Shown one piece after another: positions 3,573-6,570 of a stretch of 15,654 nt of DNA. The translations under genes were made by a program, and so were the position numbers. Numbering within the stretch: the stretch's first letter is position 1; each line of letters begins with the position of its first letter. Source of the stretch: a virus; the UHGV virus genome UHGV-1635749; one strand, given 5' to 3'. The notes beneath the pieces are model-generated. The model ran no database searches and had not been told where the DNA came from. It worked only from the letters and a program-made list of their open reading frames with translations.

Positions 3573-3926
3573 TTATGCCTCGCTTGTTACAGTCGTCTGG
3601 CCGTAGATTGTGTCAATGGAGGAAGTGAAAGTGACGCGGCGGCTGGTGCCGTCATAATTGGTATCGAAGGAAAGAATCGACAGAACGCCCGGTGTATCCT
3701 GTATGCGTTCGCGTATAGCCAGGATGTAGACATCTGATCGCTGCTTCCCAAGCACTGACTGAACATACGGCGTGCCTTCCGTCAGATCGAGAAACCACTG
3801 ACCGCGCCACAGCTCGAAACGGGTTTTTACGGCCTGGGCGACACATTCCGGACTGTCGATAAGGAAAGTATCGTCACCCTGGCCGAAAGTGTAATCGCCT
3901 TCAGTATCTTCGCGACGGTATCGCAT
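3573..3926 (-). CDS. Baseplate wedge protein, gpW/gp25-like (117 aa)
   Basis: About 115-aa ORF sandwiched between the spike and the J-like gene, the canonical gpW position. Its start overlaps the spike stop. Confidence 0.6.
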   Translation of the reverse strand: MRYRREDTEGDYTFGQGDDTFLIDSPECVAQAVKTRFELWRGQWFLDLTEGTPYVQSVLGKQRSDVYILAIRERIQDTPGVLSILSFDTNYDGTSRRVTFTSSIDTIYGQTTVTSEA

Positions 3927-4666
3927 TATTGCGGCCCTCCAGTAGTTCCCCCGCCTGTCTGAACTCCGCCATGTTTATGCGTGGCGACACTTATACCTGA
4001 AGCTGTCACATCATTCGTTACCGTAACCGGCCCAAGCATCGTCGCAGTACCACCACTTTCTCCCATTCCCTGAGACAGGTTACCGTTAATCGTTACGTAG
4101 CCGTTCAGCGTGATAGTCGGGGATGTGATTGTCGTTCCACCTTCAGCCGTAGCCGTAAGCTGGCCCGGCGTTTTAATGGTGATGTTATGTCCTGCAGCGA
4201 CCTCTACGAACGCCGCGCCATCATCGGTTCGCAGCTGCGCGGCGCTGGTACTGATACCGCTGATTTTCTGTGCTTGCGACTGCGGGCCAACGATGGCGAA
4301 CGCATCAGATAAGTCATGCTGGCGCGGGTCGACGGTCTCCTGAACGCCGCCGCTCTGCCACCAAAAATCGATGCAACGGTCAGCAAAAATCAGGAGGCAC
4401 TCGTCGCCTTCTTTTACCGGAAAGGTCAGCGTGCAACCGCCGCCGCGCGGGAAGATGACCGGCACATCCACCAGCGGTTTTAATTCGGTGGAGTCGTCGC
4501 CAACAATACCGCGAAGCGCCACTTCTACTGTGCAGGTTACAGCGTCAGGATCGAACGACTGAATGATGCCAGGCATCGCCACGCGCATTTGGGTAGACAC
4601 TGAATCGGCAATGGCCTGGGCGGTCTGCTGCTCGCCGCCGATCTGTGATTGAGTTGGAATTGGCAT
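3926..4666 (-). CDS. Baseplate central spike, P2 gpV-like (246 aa from ATG at 4666)
   Basis: The C-terminus ...SVATHKHGGVQTGGGTTGGPQ resembles the P2 gpV C-terminal HTHKH...GGTTGSP motif as I recall it. The ATG at 4664-4666 follows the terminator T-tract with GGGG upstream. The track's longer ORF (to 4840) would read through the terminator and the cassette's 3' end. Confidence 0.75.
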   Translation of the reverse strand: MPIPTQSQIGGEQQTAQAIADSVSTQMRVAMPGIIQSFDPDAVTCTVEVALRGIVGDDSTELKPLVDVPVIFPRGGGCTLTFPVKEGDECLLIFADRCIDFWWQSGGVQETVDPRQHDLSDAFAIVGPQSQAQKISGISTSAAQLRTDDGAAFVEVAAGHNITIKTPGQLTATAEGGTTITSPTITLNGYVTINGNLSQGMGESGGTATMLGPVTVTNDVTASGISVATHKHGGVQTGGGTTGGPQ

Positions 4667-4675
4667 AAAAACCCC

Positions 4676-4702
4676 ATAAAAAAACCCGCTCGGTGGCGGG
4701 TT
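4676..4702 (-). terminator. Rho-independent terminator closing the AT-rich cassette
   Basis: On the minus strand: AACCCGC-CACCGA-GCGGGTT (7-bp stem, 5 GC pairs) followed by UUUUUAUGGGGUUUUU. The stem overlaps the stop codon of the 145-aa ORF; the U-tract runs straight into the spike ATG. Confidence 0.55.
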
Positions 4703-5138
4703 ATAATTTTGCTTCTGGATAACATCTACAGCGACCATCAGGACAACACTTTCCCTCTCCGGGATGACCACTTTTAGGCGGCTTACTCCACGAAAATGTT
4801 TTCCCATTATTTTTAGCGCATTCTGCACACTCGTCACCATCCTCGCAGGAGCGCCAAATATAACGTTTAATACCCAAGCGAGATTGCTTTATCCTCTCTG
4901 CCTCAGAGTGACGACGGCTATTTTCGGCGAGGTGTTCAGCATAGCGCGCGTTATCCTTCTCAATTTCTTCTTTACTTCGCCGCTTCCCATTTGCTGGCTT
5001 TGATTTTTGGTAAGCAACCCGTTTATTTCGATTGTATGATTTAATAATTTCGTCTTCATTTCTACGCTTTTTAAATTTTAAATATTTAACAAATGCAAAA
5101 ACAATTACGAATAAAATAATAATATATGCAGGTTCCAT
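4701..5138 (-). CDS. Membrane-anchored, basic, Cys-rich hypothetical protein (145 aa) in the AT-rich cassette
   Basis: N-terminal hydrophobic helix AYIIILFVIVFAFVKYL followed by KFKKRR (positive-inside). Lys/Arg/Glu-rich middle. C-terminal CEDGDECAEC...GKTF...HPGEGKCCPDGRCRC putative metal-binding motif. ATG overlaps the upstream stop (TAATG at 5136-5140). Strongly AT-rich codons. Confidence 0.55.
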   Translation of the reverse strand: MEPAYIIILFVIVFAFVKYLKFKKRRNEDEIIKSYNRNKRVAYQKSKPANGKRRSKEEIEKDNARYAEHLAENSRRHSEAERIKQSRLGIKRYIWRSCEDGDECAECAKNNGKTFSWSKPPKSGHPGEGKCCPDGRCRCYPEAKL

Positions 5139-5506
5139 TATTTAACCTTTACGCAATCATAAGTTGCATATTGTCTTGGTGCATCCATGCTGGCTTGCAG
5201 CCACTGAGCATTGAGGATAGCTTTTCCGTTTCGCTTGATGTACTCAAGACCAACCCATCGCCCCGGTTGGTTTGTAGCCATACGCCAATCCATTTTTATA
5301 TTTTCGTAGTCTTCTTTTTGTTTCAGAAATGTCAATTTCTGATACTCGGGCTTTGCTCCATTTATGCGAGGAAAGCCGTCATTAGTACCACTCGTTGAGA
5401 AAGTGAAATCACCGCACTTCATATAGACTTTTCCTGCTGCATTTGCACCGGCAGCAGCTGTTAAGCAAATTAAGCCAGAAAATATTCCTGAGATTATCCT
5501 TTTCAT
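5138..5506 (-). CDS. Secreted (Sec signal peptide) hypothetical protein (122 aa) in the AT-rich cassette
   Basis: N-terminus MKRIISGIFSGLICLTAAAGANA-AGK has a basic n-region, hydrophobic core and ANA-A cleavage-type site, with no canonical lipobox. Two Cys in the mature part. ATG (5504-5506) overlaps the hub stop TAA (5506-5508). Confidence 0.6.
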   Translation of the reverse strand: MKRIISGIFSGLICLTAAAGANAAGKVYMKCGDFTFSTSGTNDGFPRINGAKPEYQKLTFLKQKEDYENIKMDWRMATNQPGRWVGLEYIKRNGKAILNAQWLQASMDAPRQYATYDCVKVK

Positions 5507-6570
5507 TAGGCACCCGTTTTCATCAAAGTCGAATCATTAATCAGGGTAGAAGCTCCACGCGCAAAACACATCAAATCCATGTACCACGCTTGACCTCTAG
5601 TGTCACCAGTATAGTCGATAGCCTTGACGATATAAACGCCATCTGTCGCAATGCTGGCAGCCTGTGACGTCGTGCCGGTCAGCACACGGTTGCCGTTCTC
5701 TTCTGTTTCGGTGATACGCCCGGGCGACTGTGCGATTTCGCTATTGCCGAGCGCGGCGCGGTACACCGAAGCCTGATCGAGCTGGATAAGACCATTAATG
5801 CGGATGTTCGGGTTTATCAGGCACCGCACGTTTACGCCGCCGCCCATCGTCTGTTGCGGCATACCGATCAGGCCAGTATCAGCATTCAACACAATGGCTT
5901 CGTGAATATATTTATCCTCCGGCACCATCTGGACATGACCATCCACCAGTTGCCATGTCGCTTTGCACTGCGCAGCAATATTATCCATCACGTTGCGGCT
6001 GGATGAGTAAATCGCGCGGCCACGAGGAAACACGGTATCAGGAAAATCGCCGGTAATGCCCTGTGTCACGCCGAACGCGTTGAAATCCTGCATCGTCGCC
6101 CGGTGCAGATCCGCAACGGTATAGCCAGCGGCAAGCGTGGTGATGGTAGTCGCGTAGAGGAACGCTTCGTGGTTACTGATGGCCTGAATCAGCACCCAGG
6201 AATCCGTAATGTTGTCCTTCCCGGTGACGGTGAAGCGAATATCACCGTCAAATATCAGGCCGTAGTTCTGACCGTTCACCTGCCCTACCTGGTCTGGTGA
6301 AATCTCCCGGGCGACACCAACCTGGCTCGCATCAACATCCGGCGCAATACCGTCATACCCGGCAATGATGCGAATTTTTGCAAACTCCTGCCCCAGTATC
6401 TTGTTCGTGGTATCGGTCGAAAGGTTGTAAATTTTCACGTTTGCCACGCGCGGCCAGCGTGTATCTGCCCACTCGATCTGGAACGTGACCTTAAAATCAG
6501 ACAGGGAAATACCCTGCCCGTTCTGGTCCAACAGCTGCAACTCAAAATGGCGCATCCAGTTAAGAGACAT
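5506..6570 (-). CDS. Putative baseplate hub protein (P2 gpD / Mu gpP position; 354 aa)
   Basis: Size and position downstream of the tape measure gene and upstream of the spike/wedge genes. AGGAG 6 nt upstream of the ATG at 6570. Assigned by synteny only. Confidence 0.5.
   Translation of the reverse strand: MSLNWMRHFELQLLDQNGQGISLSDFKVTFQIEWADTRWPRVANVKIYNLSTDTTNKILGQEFAKIRIIAGYDGIAPDVDASQVGVAREISPDQVGQVNGQNYGLIFDGDIRFTVTGKDNITDSWVLIQAISNHEAFLYATTITTLAAGYTVADLHRATMQDFNAFGVTQGITGDFPDTVFPRGRAIYSSSRNVMDNIAAQCKATWQLVDGHVQMVPEDKYIHEAIVLNADTGLIGMPQQTMGGGVNVRCLINPNIRINGLIQLDQASVYRAALGNSEIAQSPGRITETEENGNRVLTGTTSQAASIATDGVYIVKAIDYTGDTRGQAWYMDLMCFARGASTLINDSTLMKTGA

What the first reader, a model, noticed from the sequence alone, without database searches (positions are those of the whole stretch)
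4701..5138. Membrane-anchored basic protein with a Cys-rich motif reminiscent of MuF-type minor head proteins
One N-terminal transmembrane helix followed by KFKKRR places the rest of the protein in the cytoplasm. The C-terminus, W-x2-CEDGDECAEC-x4-GKTF-x10-HPGEGKCCPDGRCRC, resembles from memory the D-x3-C-x2-C...GK-x-F...HP-x-CRC signature of phage head-morphogenesis (MuF / SPP1 gp7-like) domains. That domain would be out of place as a short membrane protein in a tail operon. The resemblance is unverified.
Basis: inference. Interest (0 to 1): 0.7.

Follow-up and report, generated by a model that had tools for sequence, protein, structure and literature searches.

The report
Membrane-tethered mini-MuF prophage accessory protein
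A small gene inserted into a prophage tail operon encodes an inner-membrane-anchored copy of only the conserved cysteine-rich core of a phage head protein (MuF); it belongs to a widespread, unnamed family that probably acts in phage-against-phage conflict, not in head assembly.

Summary
The ORF is real: 4701..5138, minus strand, 145 aa, dN/dS about 0.1. It has one N-terminal transmembrane helix with N-out/C-in charge bias, a basic linker, a long helix and a Cys-rich C-terminus.

The MuF resemblance holds, but only for the C-terminal core (residues 74-145):
- Pfam Phage_Mu_F scores 25.1 bits, below the 29.6 cut-off, though close homologs pass.
- A profile-profile comparison with canonical MuFs gives 99.8% probability.
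- The best Foldseek hits among predicted viral structures are MuF proteins.

It is not a head-morphogenesis gene. The prophage has its own full-length MuF next to the portal gene. This gene sits in an AT-rich cassette between the baseplate hub and spike genes. Close relatives carry other cargo in that slot (Phd/Doc, DUF4236, Arc/Ant). A conserved terminator-like hairpin closes the slot.

It belongs to a larger family of short "mini-MuF" proteins (205 cluster representatives at E<=1e-10, mostly short). These have CxxC...CxC in place of the canonical R..H...CRC. They carry a TM helix or an amphipathic N-terminus. They recur as solo genes in tail modules, early regions and mobile islands.

Best reading (inferred, confidence 0.4): a moron-encoded, membrane-tethered MuF-core decoy that excludes or defends against other phages.

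The parts
4701..5138 (-). mini-MuF gene, 145 aa (stop codon 4701-4703). Its ATG overlaps the stop of the upstream gene (TAATG).
   Evidence: dN/dS 0.09-0.11; homologs
5079..5129 (-). N-terminal transmembrane helix, residues 4-20 (AYIIILFVIVFAFVKYL). Only 3 residues precede it.
   Evidence: Kyte-Doolittle 2.3-2.6 and family-wide charge asymmetry; helix in the AF2 model
5061..5078 (-). Basic stop-transfer segment K21-FKKRR-26, the positive-inside signal for N-out/C-in topology.
   Evidence: K/R count 11 (N-flank) versus 151 (C-flank) over 31 TM members
4965..4985 (-). Family-conserved basic motif K52-RRSKEE-58 ([KR][KR]x[KR][ST]xEE) in the linker before the long helix. Function unknown.
   Evidence: E58 invariant in A1 (listed there as E57); same motif seen in distant members
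4704..4919 (-). MuF-core domain, residues 74-145: the end of the long helix plus a small beta/alpha module.
   Evidence: hhalign versus canonical MuF 99.8%, E 3e-29, 72 columns; Pfam 65-137 on profile positions 34-109/112; BLASTP to own MuF; BFVD Foldseek; translation
4722..4847 (-). Cysteine cluster C98...C139. C104-x2-C107 and C137-x-C139 form the putative four-ligand zinc site. C132 is also invariant in close homologs. C98, C131 and H125 vary.
   Evidence: Metal binding itself is inferred.
4676..4702 (-). Intrinsic-terminator-like hairpin (7-bp G+C-rich stem, 4683-4702) followed by U7 (4676-4682). It lies between the stop codon and the spike-gene ATG at 4666.
   Evidence: the same element precedes the spike gene in relatives with other cargo
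5138..5506 (-). Upstream gene of the AT-rich cassette: a 122-aa signal-peptide protein (phrog_3443, unknown function). It is a lineage-conserved neighbour, not a specific partner.
5506..6570 (-). Left flank: baseplate hub gene (E217 gp41-like). Its stop overlaps the start of the 122-aa gene.
3926..4666 (-). Right flank: baseplate spike gene (gpV-like N-domain plus Apex motif), 246 aa. The 304-aa ORF in the ORF listing is an in-frame upstream extension.

Best explanation
What it is:
- The gene is cargo of a 'moron'-type accessory cassette inserted between the baseplate hub and spike genes of a temperate, lambdoid-regulated myophage with an E217/Pam3-like tail.
- Its product is a single-pass inner-membrane protein with N-out/C-in topology. 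A flexible basic linker and a long helix hold one small, probably zinc-stabilised module at the cytoplasmic face of the membrane.
- That module is the conserved C-terminal core of the MuF/SPP1-gp7 head-protein domain.

Proposed mechanism (inferred):
- Canonical MuF proteins bind the portal, sit inside the capsid and leave it with the DNA at infection.
- A membrane-tethered copy of their core would sit where incoming genomes and head-internal proteins arrive.
- There it could act as a competitor or decoy for whatever the MuF core normally binds: the portal, DNA, or another ejected protein.
- The result would be exclusion of, or interference with, other MuF-using phages. This would be a superinfection-exclusion or defence function, like other small inner-membrane proteins encoded by tail-operon morons.

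Shown versus inferred:
- Shown here: gene reality, architecture, homology to the MuF core, accessory status, family breadth and genomic contexts.
- Inferred: zinc binding, expression in the lysogen, the binding partner and the exclusion phenotype.
For: Accessory, not structural:
- The slot is variable among near-identical E. coli prophages. Cargo includes Phd/Doc, a DUF4236 membrane protein and other small genes.
- A Hafnia prophage carries the mini-MuF together with an Arc/Arc/P22-type antirepressor module in the same slot.
- In high-GC relatives the hub and spike genes abut directly.
- GC falls to 28-45% over 4700-5550 against 52-59% in the flanks.
- A hairpin+U7 closes the cassette and is conserved whatever the cargo. 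The prophage encodes a Q-family antiterminator.
- Homologs in L028 and L029 lie in the same tail modules but on the opposite strand, so they must be transcribed on their own.

Not the head MuF:
- The prophage and phage Mulock each have a full-length MuF beside the portal gene.
- The resident MuF is among the least similar cores (rank 183 of 187).

Membrane tethering looks like a family requirement:
- 31 of 107 short members have an N-terminal TM helix with K/R 11 versus 151.
- The 76 others are enriched for an N-terminal aromatic/amphipathic motif: 29 of 76 against 9 of 1011 internal windows; hydrophobic-moment test p = 2e-7.
- Some members use a C-terminal TM helix or a DUF4236+TM2 fusion instead.

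Contexts fit inter-element conflict:
- Members lie next to cI/Cro-like HTH genes, a P22-type antirepressor, or RusA.
- Others lie in islands with a methyltransferase, an SMC-like ATPase, ParE, AbiEii, DUF6119 or PIN/Phd.
- No conserved partner gene was found.

Published precedents:
- HK97 gp15 is a tail-operon moron encoding a small inner-membrane exclusion protein (PMC3594210).
- Prophage defences can block virion assembly (PMC10884400, PMC11364771).
- SPP1 gp7 binds the portal, is targeted to the capsid interior and supports the start of infection (PMC6316719, PMC5576092).
Against: - There is no functional data of any kind.
- No PADLOC model matched, and no paper on such proteins was found.
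- In the window the gene is co-directional with the late tail operon and translationally coupled to it (overlapping stop/start codons). It is therefore certainly made late in the lytic cycle.
- The only promoter-like site in the cassette is weak, and promoter counts do not exceed chance.
- It is not known which part of MuF binds the portal.
- SPP1 gp7 is dispensable (virions lacking it are still ~25% infectious, PMC6316719). Simple competition with MuF might therefore have only a mild effect.
- About half of the informative contexts are one type of tail module (E217/Pam3-like). This could mean a lineage-specific role in the phage's own cycle rather than defence.
Confidence: 0.4

Rival explanations
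1. The protein works in the phage's own cycle. One version: its MuF core binds the portal, so it is packaged and delivered with the DNA, and its hydrophobic N-terminus then inserts into the next host's membrane to aid genome entry. Another version: it tethers portal, procapsid or packaging complexes to the inner membrane during assembly.
For: - It is translationally coupled to late tail genes.
- It is present in a phage isolated from wastewater, Mulock.
- It recurs in one tail-module lineage at three different slots.
- MuF is an established capsid-targeting module used to deliver fused cargo (PMC5512222, PMC5576092).
Against: - It is absent from, or replaced in, near-identical prophages, so it is not needed for virion production.
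- The opposite-strand copies in L028 and L029 are uncoupled from the late operon.
- Family members occur in islands with no phage structural genes.
- A TM helix preceded by only 3 residues and followed by KFKKRR would be expected to anchor the protein in the producer cell's membrane, not leave it free for packaging (inference).
Confidence: 0.2
2. It is a lysogenic-conversion or host-directed accessory protein unrelated to phage exclusion. The tethered zinc module would bind a host membrane-proximal protein or nucleic acid and alter host physiology. The MuF ancestry would be only historical.
For: - It has moron features.
- Its contexts are diverse, and some members are lone chromosomal genes.
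- The canonical invariant R..H is replaced by C..C and there is a 5-residue insertion, so the binding surface may have changed.
Against: - The core is otherwise strongly conserved with canonical MuF (40% identity, similarity 0.84 at profile level). This argues that a MuF-type interaction is retained.
- The contexts are dominated by prophages and mobile elements.
Confidence: 0.2
3. It is a bona fide MuF-type minor head (head-morphogenesis) protein that happens to be encoded in the tail operon.
For: Sequence and predicted-fold similarity to MuF. NCBI names one homolog 'phage minor head protein'.
Against: - Only the last ~72 of ~285 profile positions of the canonical-MuF alignment are present.
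- The window protein is below the Pfam and TIGR01641 cut-offs.
- The canonical R..H is replaced.
- It is membrane-anchored.
- A separate full-length MuF lies beside the portal gene.
- The gene is dispensable among relatives.
Confidence: 0.04
4. It is part of a lysis or envelope module (spanin-, holin- or antiholin-like pair) together with the upstream secreted protein.
For: A small exported protein and a small TM protein are encoded side by side.
Against: - Both the E. coli prophage and Mulock have complete lysis cassettes elsewhere: holin, endolysin, and a 'lysis protein' or i-/o-spanins.
- The topology puts the bulk of the protein in the cytoplasm, opposite to an i-spanin.
- The secreted protein persists without the mini-MuF.
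Confidence: 0.03

Closest known systems
MuF / SPP1 gp7 family minor head proteins (Pfam PF04233 Phage_Mu_F, TIGR01641)
   Same: Homologous C-terminal core: Y-x-W...D...G-K-x-F-x-W...P-P...G-H-P-G...C-R-C. Support: hhalign 99.8%, 41% identity to the resident MuF, and the same predicted fold as BFVD MuF models.
   Different: - It lacks the N-terminal ~200 residues of canonical MuFs.
- R..H is replaced by C..C, with an extra Cys-containing 5-residue insertion.
- It is membrane-anchored.
- It is encoded in a tail-operon accessory slot, not beside the portal gene.
- It coexists with a canonical MuF.
HK97 gp15 (the prototype moron; superinfection exclusion)
   Same: A small single-pass inner-membrane protein encoded by an insertion of atypical composition inside a tail operon of a temperate phage (PMC3594210). 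The window cassette has the same layout.
   Different: There is no sequence relationship. gp15 is YebO-like. The window protein carries a large cytoplasmic MuF-core domain. Its exclusion activity is untested.
P22 SieA
   Same: An inner-membrane protein encoded in the late region next to mnt, between gene 16 and gene 9. Per PMC10883804 it acts on head-packaged ejection proteins. The Hafnia homolog of the window gene sits next to an Arc/Arc/Ant module in the equivalent position.
   Different: It is unrelated in sequence and polytopic. The target and phenotype of the mini-MuF are unknown.
MuF polymorphic toxins and polyvalent proteins
   Same: They reuse the MuF domain as a module joined to something else (PMC5576092, PMC5512222).
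   Different: Those proteins keep the full MuF domain at the N-terminus and add C-terminal effectors for delivery. Here only the core is kept, at the C-terminus, joined to a membrane anchor.
Prophage defences that target virion assembly or injection (Tab, Tai, SNIPE)
   Same: They are encoded on prophages or mobile elements and act on phage structural proteins or at the injection site (PMC10884400, PMC11364771, PMC13190303). They are a conceptual precedent for a structural-protein mimic at the membrane.
   Different: No homology was found (PADLOC negative). Their mechanisms are demonstrated, while this one is only proposed.

Membership tests
MuF / SPP1 gp7 head-morphogenesis family (PF04233, TIGR01641) | Score at or above the curated profile cut-off | tested here: not met
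   - Window protein: 25.1 bits against a 29.6 cut-off (Pfam) and 19.9 against 39.65 (TIGR01641).
- Relatives pass: P0005 38.1 and P0008 31.9; P0021 50.0 and P0045 42.5; P0012 45.8 on TIGR01641.
MuF / SPP1 gp7 head-morphogenesis family (PF04233, TIGR01641) | Homology of the conserved C-terminal core | tested here: met
   hhalign of mini-MuF against canonical MuF gives 99.8%, E 3.1e-29, 72 columns. BLASTP to the resident MuF gives E 9e-11. BFVD Foldseek top hits are all MuF or minor capsid proteins at probability 1.0.
MuF / SPP1 gp7 head-morphogenesis family (PF04233, TIGR01641) | Full domain, including the N-terminal part and the invariant V-R-x-x-H motif | tested here: not met
   Only Pfam profile positions 34-109 of 112 are matched, and only the last 72 of ~285 profile positions of the canonical-MuF alignment. 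R..H occurs in 26 long proteins and C..C in about 100 short ones.
MuF / SPP1 gp7 head-morphogenesis family (PF04233, TIGR01641) | Gene adjacent to the portal/terminase genes in the head module | tested here: not met
   The gene lies between the hub and spike genes. The canonical MuF sits beside the portal gene in the E. coli prophage and in Mulock.
MuF / SPP1 gp7 head-morphogenesis family (PF04233, TIGR01641) | Binds the portal and is incorporated into the capsid | not testable with these tools
   Needs pull-down or BACTH assays and virion proteomics.
Moron (independent accessory unit in a phage late operon) | Insertion between genes that are adjacent in related phages, and variable among close relatives | tested here: met
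   Hub and spike genes abut in L017 and L028. Other cargo occupies the slot in E. coli, Hafnia and other relatives.
Moron (independent accessory unit in a phage late operon) | Base composition different from the flanks | tested here: met
   GC is 0.285-0.48 across 4700-5550 against 0.52-0.59 in the flanks.
Moron (independent accessory unit in a phage late operon) | Own terminator | tested here: met
   A hairpin plus U7 at 4676-4702 is conserved before the spike gene in relatives. Termination activity itself was not measured.
Moron (independent accessory unit in a phage late operon) | Own promoter and expression from the repressed prophage | tested here: inconclusive
   There is one weak sigma-70-like site at 5636..5608, and site counts are no higher than in shuffles. 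The opposite-strand homologs in L028 and L029 must have their own promoters. No expression data are available.
Superinfection-exclusion inner-membrane proteins (functional class) | Inner-membrane location | tested here: met
   This is a prediction only: a TM helix at residues 4-20, a positive-inside bias of 11 versus 151 K/R across the family, and a helix in the AF2 model.
Superinfection-exclusion inner-membrane proteins (functional class) | Blocks infection by other phages after adsorption | not testable with these tools
   Needs plating, DNA-entry and escape-mutant experiments.
Zinc ribbon / zinc knuckle modules | Four conserved metal ligands in two pairs | tested here: met
   C104-x2-C107 and C137-x-C139 are invariant in A1. 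CxxC...CxC is present in 110 of 129 short members. Six members have exactly these four Cys and no extra one.
Zinc ribbon / zinc knuckle modules | Match to a known zinc-ribbon profile or solved fold; actual metal binding | tested here: not met
   No zinc-ribbon Pfam hit for the window protein. No PDB sequence or fold match. Metal content is not testable here.

The most novel reading that the evidence does not exclude
Mini-MuF proteins are an unrecognised, widespread class of single-gene anti-phage (superinfection-exclusion) determinants. They would be a zinc-stabilised copy of the MuF core, tethered to the cytoplasmic face of the membrane by a TM helix or an amphipathic helix. This copy would intercept the portal, MuF or ejected-protein machinery or the incoming DNA end of MuF-using phages. 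That is structural mimicry of a head-internal protein used as defence. It would also reveal what the long-enigmatic MuF core binds.
Probability: 0.3. Interest if true: 0.8.

Novelty: new variant of a known kind. Interest (0 to 1): 0.6.

Why it matters
- More than half of the siphophages surveyed in one study encode a MuF domain (PMC5576092), yet its molecular function is still undefined. The literature read here says only that SPP1 gp7 binds the portal and helps start infection.
- This finding isolates a natural minimal version of the conserved core. It is about 70 residues, has four to five conserved cysteines, and has been placed repeatedly on a membrane anchor and moved around as solo cargo of prophages and mobile islands.
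- If the family excludes phages, it adds a new mimicry-based defence principle and a compact tool for mapping the MuF interaction surface.
- If instead it serves the phage's own cycle, it points to an unsuspected membrane step involving the portal/MuF system in a large lineage of temperate myophages.
- Either way, the proteins are currently annotated as 'hypothetical' or wrongly as 'minor head protein'.

Tried and rejected
- Known defence systems. PADLOC had no model for the window protein or for 7 relatives.
- RNA families. Rfam found nothing in the window.
- A conserved partner gene. All-against-all BLASTP of neighbours across 10 loci found none. The recurrent neighbouring exported/TM proteins are not homologous to each other.
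- The idea that the upstream secreted protein is a specific partner. It is conserved independently of the mini-MuF.
- Recent duplication of the resident MuF. The resident MuF ranks 183 of 187 in similarity.
- A lysis role. Separate lysis cassettes exist.
- An antisense gene. Every antisense frame contains stops.
With a core alignment it returned mostly canonical MuFs from IMG/VR and only 4 loci from isolate genomes. Context statistics therefore rest on about 20 loci.
- Zinc-site geometry. Model coordinates could not be inspected, so this was not checked.
- Literature. Searches for membrane-bound or short Cys-rich MuF proteins and for DUF4236 found nothing relevant in the open-access library.
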